DNA from: a virus | Lineage: Duplodnaviria; Caudoviricetes | Direction: 5' to 3' (one strand) | Virus record (IMG/VR): IMGVR_UViG_3300031867_000001 | Location: 160,001 to 224,000 of that record | Length of the DNA: 64,000 nucleotides | Shown: positions 6,748 through 51,498 of the stretch, piece after piece | Layout: every line of letters begins with the position of its first letter | Numbering within the stretch: the stretch's first letter is position 1 | Translations under genes and position numbers: made by a program | The notes under the pieces: generated by a model | The model's input: only the letters and a program-made list of their open reading frames with translations | Told to the model about the DNA's origin: nothing | Databases searched by the model: none

Positions 6748-9003
6748 TCATGAAATTGTCGCTTTGACTACCTTAACGGCTGGAACGTGCTTTGGTCTTT
6801 CGGGTGGAATAGACATTGTTGTTGGTGTAATAGACGAAACATTCACAGTCGTAATCCGACCATCAACATGATTCAATTGAATCGATTGTGTTTCATCCAC
6901 ACAGAACACTGCAATCAAATCATCTTGTGGTGTCATCGAAATGATGGGTTTCAATTTACCAAACTTATTACCAGCAATCAAGAACTTGGAATGATTTACT
7001 CTGATTCTGCCAAGTTTCGTTACATAAACGAGAAGTGGTTTCTTTGGATTGATAATGAACATTCCAGCCGCTGTCTTATTATCAACCAAGAACTGACCTT
7101 GTGCATCTACTGACAATACCTTATTCAGATTGGTCAACTGGAAACGTTTACCAAGTCCATCTGATGTATACATTAACAAATCCTGTGATGTGTCATGTAC
7201 TTCCAAGATGGATACTAAGTATTCATCTTCGTCCAACGGAACAATCGGTTTACGTGTTTGATTAGATGGAATCTTATCAATCGGCATATACTTGATACGA
7301 CCTTTATTGGACAAAATCACAATGTCATTCTGTGTATTGGATACGGCTGCGATACACTTTGACATCTGGGTTCTACCAATGGATGTTAACATGATACGTT
7401 TGTCATGTGGAACCTTTGTTGTATCAACCCACAAGAATCGACCCTTATCATCAATCAAACAAACATTCGTTCCACTGACGGGTGTGATATCAGATGATAG
7501 ATGTTCCGGAGTTGCTGTCTCTGAAAAGATGACAGATCCATCTTGGAAGATTTGAACAACGCCAATGTTCACTGTTGAATTGTTTAAACCAAGAATCTTG
7601 GAGCGTCTGGGATAGCCATACTTCTCTTTGATCTCTTTCAACTCATCAATGATGCATTGATTAATCTTGACGGGGTCTGATACGATGTCTTCAATTCTAT
7701 CGACTTCTGCTTGAATATCATCCATCTTCTTAACAGTCTTCAGATATTCTTCATGTGTCAATTGATACATCTTTACATCGATCATGTAATTCGCTTGTGA
7801 TGATGATACATGTTTCGGATATGCTTTCATCAATGCACCGACAATATCCGAACGATGTTCACAATTCTTGATCGTCGTAATGGTTTTATTCAGATTCTTT
7901 TCTGATAACATGAATGCCTTACCTGTAAGCATGTTGTATTCGGTTTGTAAGATAACCGTTCTACGCAACAACCACGAACGTTTGAACTGGAAACGTTCTT
8001 TGATCCATGCCAACAGAATCTGTCGAATATTATACTTGCGGGTTCTGTATAAAGAATCTGTTACGATCATATTCTTTGTTGAGATTGGAATTCTCAATCC
8101 TGGAATAGATGTAAACAATTTATCCAATACACGATACAAGTTACATGGCTTACACCGAATCACATATTTGATTTTATTGTGAAGCAAATCCGATTCATCA
8201 TCTGCTGATAGAATCTCAGGGAATGGATTTGTCGAATCATGTAACTCATTCAGTTTCTTATTGATATCCCGCAAGAATCTCTTGTATGGTGTATTGGTAA
8301 AGGTGATGATATAATTGACATTATCCAACTCAAAGGACGATTGCATCCAAAATGTTTCATCGTCCTTTGGAATGATATCACATCCAGTCGGTGAATCTGG
8401 AATGAGCTTTACATCTGCATTTGGATTCTTTAACAGCTTAATCGTTGCATCTGCAATCTCATTCAAGTTGTATGGATAAATATCGGATGATAATGTATAT
8501 CCAATACCTGCAGATCCATTCAACAGAATGATTGGGAACTTTGCAGGAAGAATTGTCGGTTCAACAGTAGAATCATCATAATTGGGATTCATACCCACTT
8601 TACCATCAAATTCCGAGAATAATACATCATATGCAAAATCTGAAAGATACACGCCCCAATATCTACCAGCTGCAGAATCATCTCCGGCTGTTGCAGTACC
8701 GCAGTTACCAGATGCTTTTAACAACGGGATGTTATTTGCGAATGGCTGTGCCAATCCCGCAAATACATCTTTCAATCCCAATTCACCATGTGGTGAAATC
8801 TCCAATACTTTACCTGCCGCAATCGCAACGGTTACTTTGGAATGTCTGGGATAGTTCTTGTAGATTGTATACAAGATTCGACGATGGATTGGTTTCAATC
8901 CATCATAAATCATTGGAATGGAACGCTGTAAGTTTACATTTACACCATACAACGACATCCAACGTTTCGAAGCGGTATACATCTCCAATTCTTTTTCTTC
9001 CAT
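6748..9003 (-). CDS. type IIA topoisomerase subunit A (GyrA/ParC-like)
   Basis: DGLKPIHRRILY, SPHGE, SAAGRY (catalytic Tyr), NGSAGIGY, YNLNEI and C-terminal beta-pinwheel repeats. Confidence 0.92.
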   Translation of the reverse strand: MEEKELEMYTASKRWMSLYGVNVNLQRSIPMIYDGLKPIHRRILYTIYKNYPRHSKVTVAIAAGKVLEISPHGELGLKDVFAGLAQPFANNIPLLKASGNCGTATAGDDSAAGRYWGVYLSDFAYDVLFSEFDGKVGMNPNYDDSTVEPTILPAKFPIILLNGSAGIGYTLSSDIYPYNLNEIADATIKLLKNPNADVKLIPDSPTGCDIIPKDDETFWMQSSFELDNVNYIITFTNTPYKRFLRDINKKLNELHDSTNPFPEILSADDESDLLHNKIKYVIRCKPCNLYRVLDKLFTSIPGLRIPISTKNMIVTDSLYRTRKYNIRQILLAWIKERFQFKRSWLLRRTVILQTEYNMLTGKAFMLSEKNLNKTITTIKNCEHRSDIVGALMKAYPKHVSSSQANYMIDVKMYQLTHEEYLKTVKKMDDIQAEVDRIEDIVSDPVKINQCIIDELKEIKEKYGYPRRSKILGLNNSTVNIGVVQIFQDGSVIFSETATPEHLSSDITPVSGTNVCLIDDKGRFLWVDTTKVPHDKRIMLTSIGRTQMSKCIAAVSNTQNDIVILSNKGRIKYMPIDKIPSNQTRKPIVPLDEDEYLVSILEVHDTSQDLLMYTSDGLGKRFQLTNLNKVLSVDAQGQFLVDNKTAAGMFIINPKKPLLVYVTKLGRIRVNHSKFLIAGNKFGKLKPIISMTPQDDLIAVFCVDETQSIQLNHVDGRITTVNVSSITPTTMSIPPERPKHVPAVKVVKATIS

Positions 9004-47635: not shown

Positions 47636-47705
47636 ACAACAAAAAAGAACCCCCGCGTGTTGCGGGGGCTCTCTTATCACATCCTTTCATATTGTTCAGA
47701 TCTAC

Positions 47706-48116
47706 TCAATGGGAGTTGAGCAGGTCCTTCTTATAGCGCATCATTCCATGTGCTTGAAGCGTCTCATACAGCACCCATAATGCATCTTCAACATACTGAT
47801 CGATGTCAGTGCTGTTAAAATAGCCATCGTAATAATCGCTATAGTAGTTGGGATTATTAGGACGAACCGCCTCAAGCTTCCATACATATCTATCACCGTC
47901 ATTATGACGAGTGATGATAATAGAGTCTTCATCGTCAATATCAATATGCGACAGCTCGATGAGCGTGTCGAAATATTTGAATTCACCACCGTCGATCTTC
48001 TGGTGGAACACAGCCTCCAGATAGCTCTCTACAGCAGTATAGAATGTACGGGTTCCTCTGACCTCAGAAAGGTCGAGGTTTAGCTTGTTGATCGCCATCT
48101 CAATGCTCATTGTCAT
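47706..48116 (-). CDS. putative early hypothetical protein (paralogue of 48764-49159)
   Basis: AAGGAGGAGG RBS; aligns by eye with 48764-49159. Confidence 0.7.
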   Translation of the reverse strand: MTMSIEMAINKLNLDLSEVRGTRTFYTAVESYLEAVFHQKIDGGEFKYFDTLIELSHIDIDDEDSIIITRHNDGDRYVWKLEAVRPNNPNYYSDYYDGYFNSTDIDQYVEDALWVLYETLQAHGMMRYKKDLLNSH

Positions 48117-48118
48117 AA

Positions 48119-48652
48119 TTATTCCTCCTCCTTGTTGTTGAGCTCGTGGATGAAGACATATCCCCATCCGCCGATGCAGGTTACATGATAATTCTTATTG
48201 TCTTCGATCTGGCTGCGATCTTTGATCCAGACCTTGGATGGATCTGGCTCCACGAGACCCCAATCGTCCTTCTCCTTCTTCCAGGAGACGTTCGTCATGG
48301 TTCTGGCGTAGTCCCAGCCGTCTCCCTGCTTCAGAATGTGGAACGACCCGTTCTCCTCCAGAGCGCCACGGAGCTGCTCTGCAGCGAGGTCGAATTCAAC
48401 TGTACCCTGGTTATCCGGGAACGGCTCAACCCCGTGTGTATCAAGGATGACAGGGTCAACCGTGTCCTGTCCCTCAGATGTTGCTGTAAACCCGTTCCAC
48501 GGATGCGGCTTTTCGGAATCCAGTCTGAGAAGTGTATCCGGATCATGATCCGGATTGTCTGCGATAGATCGTGCCCAACGCTCTTCTGCACGTTTGTTCC
48601 ATGCGGTCAGGCTGATGATCTCGTTTGCATTCAGAATAATCGTAGTTTTCAT
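48119..48652 (-). CDS. putative early hypothetical protein
   Basis: AAGGAGG RBS; GC-richer codon usage. Confidence 0.75.
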   Translation of the reverse strand: MKTTIILNANEIISLTAWNKRAEERWARSIADNPDHDPDTLLRLDSEKPHPWNGFTATSEGQDTVDPVILDTHGVEPFPDNQGTVEFDLAAEQLRGALEENGSFHILKQGDGWDYARTMTNVSWKKEKDDWGLVEPDPSKVWIKDRSQIEDNKNYHVTCIGGWGYVFIHELNNKEEE

Positions 48653-48757
48653 TACTAATTCCTCCTTAAAATTGTCCCTCGTTTGAGGGGTTTGTTTACG
48701 TTCAGTTTATGCCCTTTCGGGATGGCGGGCGGTTTTTATAGAGCATGCCCAGGCTCT
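48653..48757 (-). promoter_or_regulatory. intergenic RNA cassette copy B: H-type pseudoknot + CCCTCAAACGAGGG hairpin + RBS
   Basis: AGAGC-CTGGGCAT-GCTCT-ATAAAAA-CCGCCC; hairpin at 48676-48689. Confidence 0.6.
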
Positions 48758-48763
48758 TGAGAA

Positions 48764-49159
48764 TCATACCAGATACAGGAAGTGATTCTCTACAAGTGTC
48801 ATGATGAGATTGTAGATAATCGAATCTACATAATTCTCATCCATAAACGCGGATCTAAACGTGTCTCTGAAAGATGTCCAGTAGTTTCTGGCGATGGTAT
48901 AAACATTTCCACGCCCATACTGGTACATTGTAATGTAAGCATCACCGTGCATGATCTTGATTGTACGGTTCTCGGCGCCGTGTGCTCTGGTGACAACGAT
49001 CTCCGTGTCACCGTGAGCAATCGTGTTGTTGTCATCGAACTTGTCGTGGAGACAGGTTTCCATGAACTCCTTGATATGCATTTCGAGCATGCCGATGTCG
49101 GTGATCTTGGGCATGTTAAGGGACAGAGTATTCTTTGCCATTTCAATGATAGTGTTCAT
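48764..49159 (-). CDS. putative early hypothetical protein (paralogue of 47706-48116)
   Basis: AAGGAGG RBS. Confidence 0.75.
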   Translation of the reverse strand: MNTIIEMAKNTLSLNMPKITDIGMLEMHIKEFMETCLHDKFDDNNTIAHGDTEIVVTRAHGAENRTIKIMHGDAYITMYQYGRGNVYTIARNYWTSFRDTFRSAFMDENYVDSIIYNLIMTLVENHFLYLV

Positions 49160-49256
49160 AATGATTCCTCCTTAAGAATCTTCCCTCGTTTGAGGGGGCT
49201 TATGGTTTATACATTTTGGGATAATGATTGAGCAGTTTACCGTCTTGCTCAGGACG
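49160..49256 (-). promoter_or_regulatory. intergenic RNA cassette copy A: H-type pseudoknot + CCCTCAAACGAGGG hairpin + RBS
   Basis: CGTC-CTGAGCAA-GACG-GTAAA-CTGCTC; hairpin at 49183-49196. Confidence 0.6.
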
Positions 49257-49261
49257 TGTGT

Positions 49262-49558
49262 TCAGATGGTAACCCAGAGTACAGTGTACACGCTGTTGCC
49301 AGCGTTTACCTTCATGCAATCACCGTTTCTTACATGAAGATATTCGAGAGCTTCTGCAGCGGCGTATCTGCCGTGCACTCTCATTGTCATCTTGACTGCG
49401 TCCAGAGCACGCTTTGCGATTGTGTCGGTGGGGGTTGTTTCGTTGTGGTTTACACACACAGCGAAATGATGTCCATCTCTTGACTTGCACACTGTTTTGT
49501 TAGTGCCACAGTCGGCGATCATGTTCCTCGCGAGCTCATTCATCAAATAGGTATTCAT
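49262..49558 (-). CDS. putative early hypothetical protein
   Basis: AAGGAG RBS; first gene after the promoter at 49755. Confidence 0.7.
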   Translation of the reverse strand: MNTYLMNELARNMIADCGTNKTVCKSRDGHHFAVCVNHNETTPTDTIAKRALDAVKMTMRVHGRYAAAEALEYLHVRNGDCMKVNAGNSVYTVLWVTI

Positions 49559-49754
49559 AGTATACTCCTTCTCTCGGTCTATCCCGAGTGTTATTTTAAG
49601 GGAAGCATAGAAAGTTTGTTATTTACTTCCCCATAGGTTTTGAATGTGTCATGATGGTTAACCAATCCATCATGGAATAGATTCAACCCTACCTACTCGC
49701 GGGTTTAGTTTCAACCACATTCACTATTGCGAATATGATTTACTCCTTCTTATT

Positions 49755-49769
49755 CATATTAATTATATA
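49755..49769 (-). promoter_or_regulatory. putative early phage promoter TATATAATTAATATG
   Basis: Third identical copy of the 15-mer. Confidence 0.65.
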
Positions 49770-49799
49770 TATATGAAATTTTAAAATAATAGAAAGAGA

Positions 49800-50040
49800 T
49801 GGCTAAGTAGACGGGGCGAAAGCCCCGTCAACAAAGCCACAAAAGAATTGGAGGTATATAGAAAGGAATATAGTTATAAGAGCCATCCGGATCGGTCATG
49901 TCATCAGCTGCACGAATTTTGACATGACACTGTACCGGAGATGAAATGCGAAGAGTCATCCCGCCCAATAAATAACTCTTCTCATATTAAGAATGTCTCT
50001 GTCTTAATATGAACGCGACCCAGATGGATTACATCTAAGT
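49800..50040 (-). ncRNA. candidate structured ncRNA / long structured 3' UTR
   Basis: Four or five consecutive hairpins, a CU-rich tract and a GACGGGGC-TTTC-GCCCCGTC terminal hairpin; no ORF. Confidence 0.4.
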
Positions 50041-50049
50041 ACACGTATG

Positions 50050-51498
50050 TCAACAATAAATATTCGGTAACTTTTTATACTTACTATGAACTCCAGGAAA
50101 AAATTTCAAGATATTCCTACGTTTCATGCCCCACTTCTCAAATGCTCGAGCATATTTCACATGATCACATATGTCAAAGTAGTAACATGTAAAACCACGA
50201 TTACGCAATCTACCAACGATCTGTTCAAAGATAATTGGTGAAGACTTTTGATCAAAGTTTACAACCGCACCAAGGTTTGAAATATCAACACCCGTTCCAC
50301 AGCTCATGGTTGTAGATAATATGATGTCACATTCAAATGCCTTTTGTCGTTCTGCAATAGGCATTGAACCATCTACATGTGCAATTGAGAATTCTTTGAA
50401 ATATTCTTGTTTATGCATTTCTTCTTCAACAAGTCTGATTGCATCCAACAAAGGTAGAAGCAATAATACTTTACCTTGTTCTTTTGTCTTTTGTGCAATC
50501 TTTACCAAATGAATGACATTTGCAATGAATGGTCTTCCACCACGATAATCCATTAACATTCGATAGTATGTTGCAGATATCAAACCTTTCTTACCATACT
50601 TAAAATGTTCTTCACATATAGCCCGAGATGCATTGTAATAGATATCCTGTAAGTATGGAACGATGTACTCATCTTGATATTCTTCATACTTCTTTGAACC
50701 AACGAATCGTTCTGCATCTGATAAAGCTCTATTCAGAACCCGATCTTCAGAATCATCAGATCTACCAAGTGTTGCTGACAAGTAGTAATTGCGTTTGATA
50801 TTACATATCGCATCAAACTTTAATAATCCTTTTAAATGAAGATGTGCTTCATCAACGATACGAATACCAAAGTTTGCTTTATCAATAACATCCATTAAGC
50901 CTTTCCAATCATCACGTAATTCATTTTCAATAGAAGAAATCGTGACAATACATACTTTCTTGGAAGGTGCATCATAGATGCGTTTTGCAATATCATCTTC
51001 ATCAATACCGAGATCTGTGAAGTTTTCGATCCATTGATTCTTTAGATTTGCAGTCGGTGCAATGATCAGAGGTTTTTTACCAATCAAAGAGATTGTATAC
51101 AATGCCATGAAGGTTTTGCCGACTCCAGGCTTAACTTCAATGGTTAGTTTTGGTGATTTACATTTCACCATTCTATCAATACAATCTCTTTGCAATTGAG
51201 AACGAGGTTCTCTGTTCATTTTAATCGTAATATCCGCACCTTCTCGTGATGGAATGTTTTTGATAAATGATTTTAATGGAACAACGTTCTGGTCTTTCAT
51301 GGTTAAGAATCCAGATGTAATGTATAATACATCATGTTCTTTACCGAAGATTGGTTTTTTATCTGGATCAGCACCCGAATAAATGAAGTATTCTCGTAAC
51401 GGATCTTTCAAGGAGAAATATCGTAATGCGGCTCGTTTTATTTCTGGAGATGGATGATGTATAATAACACCTGTTGATGTTTTCTCAACCTGCTGCAT
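50050..51498 (-). CDS. superfamily 2 DEAH helicase (UvsW-like), second paralogue
   Basis: PGVGKT, IVDEAH, LSAT, GTGVDI, QIVGRLR. Confidence 0.88.
   Translation of the reverse strand: MQQVEKTSTGVIIHHPSPEIKRAALRYFSLKDPLREYFIYSGADPDKKPIFGKEHDVLYITSGFLTMKDQNVVPLKSFIKNIPSREGADITIKMNREPRSQLQRDCIDRMVKCKSPKLTIEVKPGVGKTFMALYTISLIGKKPLIIAPTANLKNQWIENFTDLGIDEDDIAKRIYDAPSKKVCIVTISSIENELRDDWKGLMDVIDKANFGIRIVDEAHLHLKGLLKFDAICNIKRNYYLSATLGRSDDSEDRVLNRALSDAERFVGSKKYEEYQDEYIVPYLQDIYYNASRAICEEHFKYGKKGLISATYYRMLMDYRGGRPFIANVIHLVKIAQKTKEQGKVLLLLPLLDAIRLVEEEMHKQEYFKEFSIAHVDGSMPIAERQKAFECDIILSTTMSCGTGVDISNLGAVVNFDQKSSPIIFEQIVGRLRNRGFTCYYFDICDHVKYARAFEKWGMKRRNILKFFPGVHSKYKKLPNIYC

What the first reader, a model, noticed from the sequence alone, without database searches (positions are those of the whole stretch)
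48653..49256. Repeated pseudoknot + hairpin + RBS cassette between putative early genes
Seen: 5-6 nt after the stop codons of two consecutive genes lies an H-type pseudoknot with compensatory changes: CGTC-CTGAGCAA-GACG-GTAAA-CTGCTC (49230-49256) and AGAGC-CTGGGCAT-GCTCT-ATAAAAA-CCGCCC (48727-48757). Stem 1 is replaced, and stem 2 co-varies (GAGC/GCTC vs GGGC/GCCC). About 35 nt later comes an identical hairpin CCCTCAAACGAGGG (49183-49196, 48676-48689) and then TTAAGGAGGAAT. The stem1/A-rich linker/stem2 layout resembles the P1-AAA pseudoknot of pistol ribozymes and type III antitoxin RNAs, but pistol P2/P3 are missing. Inference: an RNA processing or stabilising element (e.g. an RNase J roadblock), a toxin-decoy RNA, or a cassette scaffold for gene shuffling.
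Basis: partly seen in the sequence, partly recalled or inferred. Interest (0 to 1): 0.72.

Follow-up and report, generated by a model that had tools for sequence, protein, structure and literature searches.

The report
Widespread gene-end RNA pseudoknot, modular spacers
The two repeated spacers between small early genes of this 250-kb cattle-rumen phage each start with a tiny knotted RNA fold from a very widespread family, found just after gene ends in hundreds of unrelated phages and many bacteria but absent from Rfam 15 and from the papers I could search; its function is still unproven.

Summary
Both pseudoknots, both identical hairpins and the strong ribosome-binding sites lie at the stated coordinates on the minus strand, 5 and 6 nt after the stop codons of genes A and B.

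The "cassette" is not one unit. It is two independent modules.

(1) The pseudoknot stays with the upstream gene. The copy after gene A scores 46.8 bits against a model built from 110 copies in unrelated viral contigs. A third copy lies elsewhere in this genome. The copy after gene B is a divergent variant, and 55 of 55 nt are invariant in nine relatives whose gene B varies at 49% of columns.

(2) The hairpin-plus-SD module goes with the downstream gene and is swapped, altered or lost among relatives.

Across the family the knot is co-oriented with genes, and its commonest distance from a stop codon is exactly 5 nt. I read it as an RNA "full stop" that abuts the terminating ribosome and shields or delimits the cistron (about 0.4). 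Pistol, ToxI, preQ1 and frameshift readings fail their tests. No Rfam family or paper matches. Earlier follow-ups of this scan found the same family on other DNA.

The parts
49262..49558 (-). Gene A, 98 aa, an orphan. It is the first gene of a 4-gene GC-rich (45% against 36%) early-type cluster.
   Evidence: ORF. No Pfam or PADLOC hit. Orthologues of 93-103 aa in relatives. GC profile.
49229..49256 (-). PK1, a canonical member of the widespread gene-end H-type pseudoknot family. S1 49256-49253 pairs with 49244-49241. L1 is C 49252. S2 49251-49246 pairs with 49234-49229. L3 is GUAAAC.
   Evidence: Sequence. Model R1 gives 46.8 bits, E 4e-13. Family covariation.
49183..49196 (-). Hairpin 1, CCCUC-AAAC-GAGGG, 7 nt upstream of the TTAAGGAGGAAT word of gene B.
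   Evidence: Replaced by CCAGAAC-N11-GTTCTGG in seven relatives (L001, L002, L006-L010) and in L015.
49164..49175 (-). TTAAGGAGGAAT, the SD of gene B.
   Evidence: This is a common SD word in this genome.
48764..49159 (-). Gene B, 131 aa, an orphan and a distant paralogue of D.
   Evidence: BLASTP of B against D: 24% identity, E 5e-6. 20 homologues. AF2 pLDDT 86 with no PDB fold match.
48712..48763 (-). A 52-nt block after the stop of gene B that is invariant in nine loci. It holds the spacer, PK2 and the mini-hairpin CCC-GAAA-GGG (48721-48712). In PK2, S1 48757-48753 pairs with 48744-48740, L1 is C 48752, S2 48751-48747 pairs with 48730-48726, and L3 is AUAAAAACC.
   Evidence: 55 of 55 columns invariant against 51% of CDS columns, where the longest invariant run is 6. 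In L014 the spacer has diverged, a U-G pair became C-G, and an A-C mismatch was repaired to A-U.
48676..48689 (-). Hairpin 2, identical to hairpin 1, 7 nt upstream of the TTAAGGAGGAAT word of gene C.
   Evidence: Absent from the orthologous spacer of L001/L002. The loop is AAC in L003/4/6/7 and ACGAAC in L014.
48658..48669 (-). TTAAGGAGGAAT, the SD of gene C.
48119..48652 (-). Gene C, 177 aa, an orphan.
   Evidence: 15 homologues. AF2 pLDDT 90 with no PDB fold match.
47706..48116 (-). Gene D, 136 aa. Its start is the ATG at 48116, 2 nt after the stop of C, with its SD inside C. There is no spacer module here.
47643..47675 (.). Bidirectional intrinsic terminator that closes the cluster.
49573..49588 (-). 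Hairpin CUCGG-GAUAGA-CCGAG, abutting the SD AGAAGGAG of gene A. It is a third type of hairpin+SD module.
   Evidence: Its homologue CCCAG-GAAAGA-CUGGG in L011/L014 differs by two double compensatory changes.
49750..49839 (-). Terminator hairpin of the upstream helicase gene (49800-49839), followed by an AT-rich promoter-like tract and a conserved ~200-nt leader ahead of gene A.
   Evidence: The leader is conserved in L014/L015.

Best explanation
Each of the two intergenic regions is built from two independent RNA modules on the sense (minus-strand) transcript.

Module 1 belongs to the upstream gene. It is a compact 28-32-nt H-type pseudoknot: S1 of 4-5 bp of any sequence, a single-C loop 1, an S2 of near-fixed sequence (YGRGYA / URCYC), and loop 3 ending in AAAC. 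It is a member (PK1) or a divergent variant (PK2) of a very widespread family placed just after stop codons.

I propose that it works as an RNA "full stop". It sits at the shortest distance (5 nt) that lets a terminating ribosome reach the stop codon without opening it, so no naked RNA is left behind the last ribosome. The knot then acts as a mechanically stable barrier that delimits the cistron. It would block 3'-to-5' exonucleases from entering the upstream message, and would hinder nucleases, Rho or sliding ribosomes from crossing the boundary.

Module 2 belongs to the downstream gene. It is a short hairpin a few nt upstream of a strong SD. It would insulate the ribosome-binding site from upstream folding, and would give the downstream cistron a structured 5' edge of the kind known to stabilise mRNA in Gram-positive hosts.

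Shown: the structures, their selection, their family membership, their strand and position rules, and their modular exchange.

Inferred: the barrier and stabiliser mechanism.
For: Structure and selection:
- S1 outer pair in 110 unrelated copies: CG 26, UA 24, AU 21, UG 9, GC 6, GU 2. Covariation score is 0.169 against 0.093 in shuffles (0 of 500 reach it).
- S2 position 12-30: A-U in phage copies, and G-C 113 / G-U 6 / mismatch 0 in the complementary sample.
- 17 further copies in the phage contigs (16 in the IMG/VR contigs that also hold a canonical copy, plus L014) and one in a bacterial contig have quite different S1 sequences, against 1 hit in shuffles.
- PK2 block: 55 of 55 nt invariant in nine loci against 51% of CDS columns. 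In L014 the spacer has diverged while the changes inside the knot improve its pairs.

RNA-level and gene-end logic:
- A same-strand ORF ends within 60 nt upstream in 89 of 124 copies, against 11 of 124 in the mirror test.
- The stop-to-S1 spacer has a sharp floor and mode at 5 nt (20 copies at 5, only 4 below). The window's copies are at 5 and 6 nt. From established work on the ribosomal mRNA helicase and on -1 frameshift spacers, 5 nt past the A-site codon is the entrance of the mRNA channel.
- The third copy in this genome ends a short early RNA, 2 nt after a 7-codon ORF, with no co-transcribed downstream gene nearby.

Linkage to the upstream gene:
- PK2 always follows gene B, whatever gene comes next (C, C' of 171 aa, a D-like gene, or a new gene).
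- PK1 is absent where gene A is absent.

Hairpin module:
- It is swapped, lost or loop-altered in orthologous spacers.
- Stems of related types differ by double compensatory changes.
Against: - No transcript ends, half-lives or nuclease assays exist for any copy, so the mechanism is inference.
- A simple hairpin would serve as a 3' block. The near-invariant S2 and loop sequences across hosts from many phyla are better explained by a specific partner or an exacting tertiary fold.
- In close relatives PK1 lies 11-14 nt from the stop. In this genome's third copy, and in the bacterial copies, the ribosome must open the knot to terminate. The butt-joint rule is therefore not universal.
- 63% of copies also lie at most 40 nt upstream of the next start, which equally fits a role in downstream translation.
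- Genome-wide, hairpins upstream of SDs are not enriched in this phage.
- The family samples were drawn with fixed-sequence patterns, so invariance of the fixed positions is by construction.
Confidence: 0.4

Rival explanations
1. The knot is a translational device. By standing at the mouth of the terminating ribosome, 20-35 nt ahead of the next start, it tunes termination, recycling or re-initiation. It would thereby couple or uncouple translation of neighbouring cistrons. Where the stop lies inside it, it would act as a leader-peptide switch.
For: The 5-nt floor and mode of the stop-to-knot spacer is the same geometry as in -1 frameshift stimulators. The knot-to-start distance peaks at 20-34 nt. 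Bacterial copies overlap the stop of a conserved micro-ORF just upstream of Rrf2 regulator genes. This genome's third copy follows a 7-codon ORF with a perfect SD.
Against: In this window the next start is 70-80 nt away, with another hairpin in between. Only 60 of 124 copies have a same-strand ORF soon after, and 42 face the opposite strand. Some copies sit beside tRNA genes or before T-runs. Stop read-through is excluded in L014, where TGA-TGA-TAA lie in frame.
Confidence: 0.22
2. The knot is an aptamer or decoy. Its invariant loops and S2 would bind a conserved host or phage protein (a nuclease, RNase P, ribosomal protein S1, or a defence toxin such as a ToxN-type RNase) or a small ligand. 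The gene-end position would be secondary.
For: Near-identical sequence occurs in phages of Staphylococcus, Vibrio, Synechococcus, Moorella and crAss-like phages, and in many bacterial phyla. There are up to 6 copies per contig. S2 is conserved in sequence while S1 is free. The architecture resembles the preQ1-I aptamer (own knowledge).
Against: There is no association with any gene function; copies lie between genes of all kinds. No match to preQ1, ToxI or any other Rfam model at E<=10. There are no tandem arrays and no toxin gene here. The strict strand and stop-codon positioning is not needed for a decoy.
Confidence: 0.13
3. It is a DNA-level signal: a promoter (as annotated in phage phiJB) or a conserved recombination joint that exists to let gene cassettes shuffle, like PeSL elements of T4-type phages.
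For: phiJB annotates the site as 'putative promoter P5R'. Gene content changes exactly downstream of the invariant PK2 block among relatives. The two hairpin/SD modules in the window are 91% identical over 34 nt, which suggests conversion.
Against: Compensatory changes in two crossing helices point to a folded single strand. The element occurs in phages with quite different RNA polymerases and inside late operons. The sigma-70 scan of this region finds no more promoter-like sites than shuffles do (9 found against a mean of 6.6); one weak 9-of-12 match (48792-48763, minus strand) spans the end of gene B and stops before PK2. Shuffling can be a by-product of conserved sequence.
Confidence: 0.06
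4. For the hairpin only: it is an intrinsic terminator for antisense (plus-strand) transcription that would otherwise read into the cluster.
For: On the plus strand all three hairpins (48674-48691, 49181-49198, 49573-49588) are called terminator-like, with T-rich tails. L014 has a long A-rich tract before the hairpin on the sense strand.
Against: The tails are weak (5 T in 8). A strong bidirectional terminator already closes the cluster at 47643-47675. The alternative hairpin type in relatives has no A-rich tract before it. Every hairpin keeps a fixed position next to an SD.
Confidence: 0.08
5. It is a self-cleaving ribozyme of a pistol-like or new class.
Against: No pistol or other ribozyme hit at E<=10. 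28 nt with no further helices is smaller than any known self-cleaving class. P2/P3 and a conserved cleavage dinucleotide are absent.
Confidence: 0.03

Closest known systems
Luteovirus-type -1 frameshift pseudoknots (e.g. BWYV, 28 nt)
   Same: Same size class. Both are H-type, with a very short loop 1 containing C and an A-rich loop 3 ending in AAAC that should lie in the S1 minor groove. Both are placed 5 nt or more downstream of the A-site codon.
   Different: Here the A-site codon is a stop, not a slippery heptamer. There is no overlapping -1 ORF. L014 has three in-frame stops before the knot. The element occurs in DNA phages and bacteria.
preQ1-I riboswitch aptamer (Rfam RF00522)
   Same: A 5-bp P1, an A-rich tail and a short P2 to the loop. 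PK2 (AGAGC...GCUCUAUAAAAAC) looks much like the B. subtilis aptamer as I recall it.
   Different: No Rfam hit at E<=10. It is not linked to queuosine genes, lies after genes and not in 5' leaders of que operons, and has several copies per genome.
Exoribonuclease-resistant RNAs (xrRNAs) of flaviviruses and plant viruses (PMC5760640, PMC8374639)
   Same: A small pseudoknotted fold in an intergenic region or 3' UTR of a virus, proposed to stop a processive nuclease without a protein cofactor.
   Different: xrRNAs are 45-70 nt ring-like folds proven against Xrn1. Nothing has been tested here, and the fold is a plain H-type knot.
5' mRNA stabilisers of Bacillus and its phages (SP82 stabiliser, ermC and aprE leaders; own knowledge) and PeSL cassettes of T4-type phages
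   Same: A hairpin next to a strong SD at the head of a cistron. Short regulatory modules that flank small, variable early genes are exchanged between related phages.
   Different: No promoter sits in these spacers, and the hairpin is internal to a polycistronic unit. The exchange is shown here, but the stabiliser function is not.
Type III antitoxin RNAs (ToxI, CptI) and pistol ribozyme
   Same: Short pseudoknotted RNA with an A-rich linker.
   Different: No tandem array, no toxin gene, no P2/P3 and no Rfam hit.

Membership tests
Widespread gene-end H-type pseudoknot of phages (uncatalogued; consensus N-GUC-C-UGRGYA-N-GAC-N'-NUAAAC-URCYCA) | Significant score against a covariance model built from unrelated copies | tested here: met
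   PK1 scores 46.8 bits, E 4e-13, and the third genome copy scores 44.1 bits. PK2 is not detected at E<=10 by this narrow model, so PK2 rests on the features below.
Widespread gene-end H-type pseudoknot of phages (uncatalogued; consensus N-GUC-C-UGRGYA-N-GAC-N'-NUAAAC-URCYCA) | S1 of 4-5 bp, free in sequence, directly 5' of a single-C loop 1 | tested here: met
   PK1 has CGUC/GACG and PK2 has AGAGC/GCUCU, each followed by C. Family S1 variants include AAAC, GGAC, AGAC, ACUC, UAUUC, AGAUC and CCAC.
Widespread gene-end H-type pseudoknot of phages (uncatalogued; consensus N-GUC-C-UGRGYA-N-GAC-N'-NUAAAC-URCYCA) | S2 of YGRGYA pairing with URCYC, 5-6 bp | tested here: met
   PK1 has UGAGCA/UGCUCA (6 bp). 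PK2 has UGGGC/GCCCG (5 bp including one U-G), with an A-C mismatch at the inner pair. Its relative L014 has CGGGCA/UGCCCG, which is fully canonical.
Widespread gene-end H-type pseudoknot of phages (uncatalogued; consensus N-GUC-C-UGRGYA-N-GAC-N'-NUAAAC-URCYCA) | Loop 3 ending in AAAC immediately before the S2 3' strand | tested here: met
   PK1 has GUAAAC. PK2 has AUAAAAAC plus one extra C. Longer loops (GCUAAAAC, AGGAUAAAC) occur in the family.
Widespread gene-end H-type pseudoknot of phages (uncatalogued; consensus N-GUC-C-UGRGYA-N-GAC-N'-NUAAAC-URCYCA) | Sense orientation, a few nt after a stop codon | tested here: met
   The spacers are 5 and 6 nt here. The family mode is 5 nt, and 89 of 124 copies lie behind a same-strand ORF end.
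Pistol self-cleaving ribozyme (Rfam RF02679) | P1 with pseudoknot, plus P2 and P3 helices and a conserved cleavage site; match to the Rfam model | tested here: not met
   No hit at gathering score or at E<=10. No helices follow the knot in PK1. Cleavage cannot be tested here.
Type III toxin-antitoxin antitoxin RNA (ToxI / CptI / AntiQ) | Tandem direct repeats of about 34-45 nt immediately upstream of a ToxN/CptN/AbiQ endoribonuclease gene | tested here: not met
   The copies are 507 nt apart and separated by a gene. Genes A-D have no Pfam or PADLOC family. There is no Rfam hit.
preQ1-I riboswitch (RF00522) | Match to the aptamer model; position in the leader of queuosine or transport genes | tested here: not met
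   No hit at E<=10. The flanking genes are orphans.
-1 programmed frameshift or stop read-through stimulator | A slippery heptamer or leaky stop 5-9 nt upstream, and a conserved extended ORF | tested here: not met
   There is no X XXY YYZ site before either knot. Most gene A stops are TAA. L014 reads TGA-TGA-TAA in frame before PK2.
Intrinsic (Rho-independent) terminator | A GC-rich hairpin directly followed by a U-run on the sense strand | tested here: not met
   No sense-strand terminator is called at PK1, PK2 or the hairpins. Only 9 of 124 family copies are followed by a T-run.
Exoribonuclease-resistant RNA (xrRNA) | Halts a processive exonuclease in vitro without protein | not testable with these tools
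   This needs RNase J1, PNPase or RNase R assays.

The most novel reading that the evidence does not exclude
The 28-nt knot is a universal prokaryotic and phage "stop-codon companion". It would be a self-sufficient RNA fold that docks against the terminating ribosome and acts as the bacterial-world counterpart of viral xrRNAs, halting exonucleases, Rho or ribosomes at cistron boundaries. In bacteria the same fold would be used as a leader-peptide-operated switch, with the micro-ORF stop inside the knot, upstream of Rrf2 regulators. That would make it one of the smallest and most widespread uncatalogued functional RNA classes.
Probability: 0.3. Interest if true: 0.9.

Novelty: new variant of a known kind. 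Interest (0 to 1): 0.74.

Why it matters
A 28-nt RNA fold with both helices proven by covariation recurs after gene ends in hundreds of unrelated phages, including easily handled Staphylococcus phages, and in many bacterial phyla. Yet it is in no Rfam 15 family and in no paper I could find.

If it is a nuclease or ribosome barrier, it would explain how phages punctuate and stabilise long polycistronic messages. It would also give synthetic biology a very small insulator part.

The locus further shows, in natural relatives, that phage spacers are built from separable 3'-end and 5'-end modules that recombine independently. This bears on how small early (often anti-defence) genes are shuffled.

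Tried and rejected
- **Rfam:** cmscan of the whole window at gathering score, of 48600-49300 at E<=10, and of 12 related loci found nothing relevant.
- **Nested folding:** z-scores of the spacers are not significant.
- **Paralogy:** A, B and C are not paralogues of each other; only B and D are. A tandem gene duplication therefore does not explain the repeat.
- **Genome-wide promoter idea for the hairpin:** there are only 2 copies in 250 kb.
- **General 'hairpin before SD' rule:** not enriched in this phage.
- **Read-through or recoding:** the frame after both stops is open in several loci, but L014 has TGA-TGA-TAA.
- **First pseudoknot-after-stop scan:** it was confounded by palindromic terminators.
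- **Covariation of PK1 within close relatives:** not significant.
- **Searches that found nothing:**
  - megablast and blastn of the locus against 50,697 phage records;
  - IMG/VR and JGI scans with proteins A, B, C and the B alignment;
  - exact PK2 patterns in IMG/VR and JGI;
  - the hairpin+SD pattern in IMG/VR.
- **Whole-record search of related Logan contigs:** not possible.
- **Protein folds:** AF2 models of B and C gave no PDB fold match.
- **Literature:** five full-text searches by sequence strings and by topic found no description. PMC10690425 lists unnamed candidate RNAs upstream of GP20 (scaffold) genes that may overlap this family. I could not resolve that from the text.
Full report
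**Setting.** The window is part of a single 250,503-bp contig with direct terminal repeats, at 37.6% GC. It encodes a split multisubunit RNA polymerase (RNA_pol_Rpb2_6). Earlier notes of this scan call it an uncultured cattle-rumen jumbo phage.

The finding lies in a 2-kb islet of 45% GC within DNA of 34-37% GC. The islet carries four co-oriented minus-strand genes:
- A (49262-49558, 98 aa)
- B (48764-49159, 131 aa)
- C (48119-48652, 177 aa)
- D (47706-48116, 136 aa; its true start is 2 nt after the stop of C)

The cluster follows the terminator of a helicase gene, an AT-rich promoter-like tract and a ~200-nt leader. It ends at a bidirectional terminator at 47643-47675. None of the four proteins has a Pfam or PADLOC family, and PHROGs gives only two weak matches to families of unknown function, E 0.004 and 0.051. 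B and D are distant paralogues (24% identity, E 5e-6). Confident AF2 models of B and C match no solved fold.

**Observation.**
- PK1 is at 49256-49229, 5 nt after the TGA of gene A.
- PK2 is at 48757-48726, 6 nt after the TGA of gene B.
- The identical hairpin CCCTCAAACGAGGG is at 49183-49196 and 48676-48689. These are its only two copies in the whole genome.
- Each hairpin is followed by TTAAGGAGGAAT, which is just the phage's usual strong SD.

The two spacers align over their whole length at about 75% mean column identity, so one is a diverged copy of the other. A pseudoknot of this template next to the stop is rare in shuffles: under 1% for each spacer and 0 of 3000 for both. Palindromic terminators raise the real-genome background to 3.5%.

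**The cassette is two modules.** Homologues of B (54-98% identity) and of C led to 15 related metagenomic loci. Their gene content differs:
- A-B-C-D in L001 and L002
- A-B-C' (171 aa) in L003, L004 and L006 (L007 ends inside the gene after B)
- A-B-D-like in L005 and L008-L010 (L015 ends inside the gene after B)
- B followed by a new gene, with no gene A, in L014

The pseudoknot stays with the gene on its 5' side. PK2 follows B in every locus, whatever comes next. PK1 follows A and is missing where A is missing.

The hairpin/SD part goes with the downstream start and is exchangeable.
- In front of B it is either CCCTC-AAAC-GAGGG plus AAGGAGG, or an unrelated CCAGAAC-N11-GTTCTGG plus AGAATAGGAG.
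- In front of C the hairpin is present with loop AAAC or AAC, or is absent altogether (L001).
- In L014 it has the loop ACGAAC and precedes a different gene.
- A third type abuts the SD of the first gene: CUCGG-GAUAGA-CCGAG here, and CCCAG-GAAAGA-CUGGG in L011 and L014. These differ by two double compensatory changes.

Hairpins before SDs are not a genome-wide rule in this phage.

**PK2 is under extreme constraint.** In nine non-redundant loci only 51% of gene B columns, and 20% of third codon positions, are invariant. The longest invariant run in the gene is 6 nt. Yet the stop codon plus the next 52 nt are invariant at 55 of 55 positions (profile). This block holds the spacer, PK2 and a CCC-GAAA-GGG mini-hairpin.

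The most divergent locus is L014 (B 66% identical). There 4 of the 6 spacer bases have changed, producing TGA-TGA-TAA in frame, which excludes a read-through extension. Inside the knot there are two changes. One turns a U-G pair of S2 into C-G. The other turns an A-C mismatch into A-U.

**PK1 belongs to a very large family.** A search of the genome with the module alignment found a third copy at genome 47,049-47,084, outside this window. It lies 2 nt after the stop of a 7-codon ORF (MKGHIKL) at the end of a promoter-driven structured early RNA.

These held 138 copies, with up to 6 per contig. A 30-nt query found 164 cultured-phage records. They include 85 Staphylococcus phages, where the motif lies between the Mu-F-like head gene and the scaffold gene and phiJB labels it 'putative promoter P5R'. 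They also include Vibrio, Synechococcus, Microcystis, Moorella, Lactobacillus and crAss-like phages. I reached the family this way before reading the scan's earlier notes. Those notes report the same family on other DNA.

**Proof of the fold.** In 110 distinct copies the outer S1 pair takes all four Watson-Crick forms plus wobbles (CG 26, UA 24, AU 21, UG 9, GC 6, GU 2, unpaired 22). The S2 pair 14-28 is CG 61, UG 31, UA 11, unpaired 7. The covariation score is 0.169 against 0.093 in shuffles, and 0 of 500 shuffles reach it. Slid controls pair at 20-49% against 95.6%.

A complementary scan required a base other than A at S2 position 12. In these the base is always G, and its partner is C (113) or U (6), never a mismatch.

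In the fetched phage loci, 17 further copies have entirely different S1 helices (16 in IMG/VR contigs that also hold a canonical copy, plus L014), and one more lies in a bacterial contig: AAAC/GUUU, GGAC/GUCC, AGAC/GUCU, ACUC/GAGU, UAUUC/GAAUA, AGAUC/GAUUU, CCAC/GUGG, and AGAGC/GCUCU in L014. Shuffles gave 1 hit.

So both crossing helices are real. S1 is free in sequence. Loop 1 (C), S2 and the AAAC end of loop 3 are conserved.

Model R1 scores PK1 at 46.8 bits and the third copy at 44.1 bits, but does not detect PK2. PK2 therefore qualifies by architecture and by its L014 form, not by score. One caveat applies: the samples were drawn with fixed patterns, so the invariance of the fixed positions is uninformative.

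**Position rules.** Among 124 distinct phage copies:
- A same-strand ORF ends within 60 nt upstream in 89, against 11 in the mirror test.
- The spacer from stop codon to the first S1 base has a sharp floor and mode at 5 nt: 20 copies at 5 and only 4 below.
- The next start lies 20-34 nt after the knot in about half of the copies.
- Only 7% are followed by a T-run.
- A few lie beside tRNA genes.

From established work on the ribosomal mRNA helicase and on -1 frameshift spacers, 5 nt beyond the A-site codon is the mouth of the mRNA channel. The commonest placement therefore lets the ribosome reach the stop codon with the knot still folded against it. The window's copies (5 and 6 nt) fit this. 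The copies in close relatives (11-14 nt) and the third copy (2 nt) do not.

**Mechanism.** The strand bias, the gene-end linkage, the third copy at the end of an RNA with no co-transcribed downstream gene, and the upstream-gene linkage in relatives all favour a 3'-boundary element of the sense RNA. I commit to a "full stop" barrier that abuts the last ribosome and shields or delimits the cistron. The hairpin/SD would act as a separate RBS insulator and 5' stabiliser. My confidence is about 0.4, because no RNA ends or nuclease data exist, and because sequence conservation this strict hints at a specific partner.

The rivals are:
- a termination or re-initiation device (0.22);
- an aptamer or decoy (0.13);
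- a DNA-level promoter or recombination joint (0.06);
- an antisense terminator, for the hairpin only (0.08);
- a ribozyme (0.03).

**Known families.** No Rfam 15 family matches at any threshold used. Pistol, ToxI-type antitoxins, preQ1-I, frameshift or read-through signals and intrinsic terminators each fail a defining feature that was tested. Five literature searches found no description. A 2023 catalogue of about 10,000 unnamed viral RNA candidates may contain it.

**Verdict.** But the element is neither local nor a single cassette, and it is not pistol- or ToxI-like. It is a local pair of members of a very widespread, uncatalogued gene-end pseudoknot family, joined to swappable hairpin/SD modules.

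Noticed in passing
Outside the window: genome 47,049-47,084 (+), locus L016:1049-1084: A third copy of the PK1-type knot (44.1 bits). It lies 2 nt after the stop of a 7-codon ORF (MKGHIKL) with a perfect SD, at the end of a ~300-nt promoter-driven structured early RNA. About 27 nt later comes a T9 run, and then a late-type promoter word AACG-N6-TA before a 402-aa gene.
   Followed up: partly
L148, L151, L152, L166, L174, L181 and many of L143-L262 (bacterial MAGs: Omnitrophota, Planctomycetales, Desulfobacterota): The G-C form of the knot overlaps the 3' end of a conserved micro-ORF (M..I.YMLRPVAHCKEGCS..SWAR*). The ORF's stop is the UGA or UAA inside the knot. It lies 26-38 nt upstream of an Rrf2-family regulator gene (Pfam E 1e-27). 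This looks like an undescribed leader-peptide and pseudoknot switch.
   Followed up: partly
L177, L178, L179 (Anaerolineales MAGs): Two knots of this family lie head to tail with no spacer: ...GTCCYGGGYANGAC..TAAACTRCC-TG-GTCCTGGGCA....
   Followed up: no
window 47706-49558 compared with L001-L015: The gene content of the cluster varies among close relatives (A-B-C-D, A-B-C', A-B-D-like, B-new gene). The breakpoints fall just downstream of the invariant PK2 block. B and D are old paralogues.
   Followed up: partly
genome ~8,316-8,347 (+), ~143,030-143,060 (-), ~150,7xx (-); window 49573-49588 (-): A further recurring module: a 5-7-bp hairpin directly abutting the SD AGAA(A/U)(U)GGAG. Two copies share the loop CCCCUAAAAG but have covarying stems (CCGAGAU/AUCUCGG and CCGGGAC/GUCCCGG).
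   Followed up: no
L137:1490-1530 (Staphylococcus phage phiJB, NC_028669 21444-21484): The deposited annotation calls the knot a 'putative promoter P5R'. It lies inside the late head-gene operon, 10-16 nt after a stop codon (16 in phiJB; 9 in phage 80), and has a flipped S1 pair (CGAC/GUCG) and a 4-bp S2.
   Followed up: partly
window 50050-51498 compared with L001:371-2113: The 482-aa helicase gene here corresponds in relatives L001 and L005 to a 352-aa helicase gene. In L001 that gene is preceded by a separate 141-aa gene and a ~260-nt gap. This may be a fusion, a split or an insertion.
   Followed up: no
window 49590-49740 (-): The ~200-nt leader ahead of gene A is conserved in L014 and L015. 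It holds two further hairpins (CCAUGAUGG...CCAUCAUG and GGGGAAG...CUUCCC). Its function is unknown.
   Followed up: no
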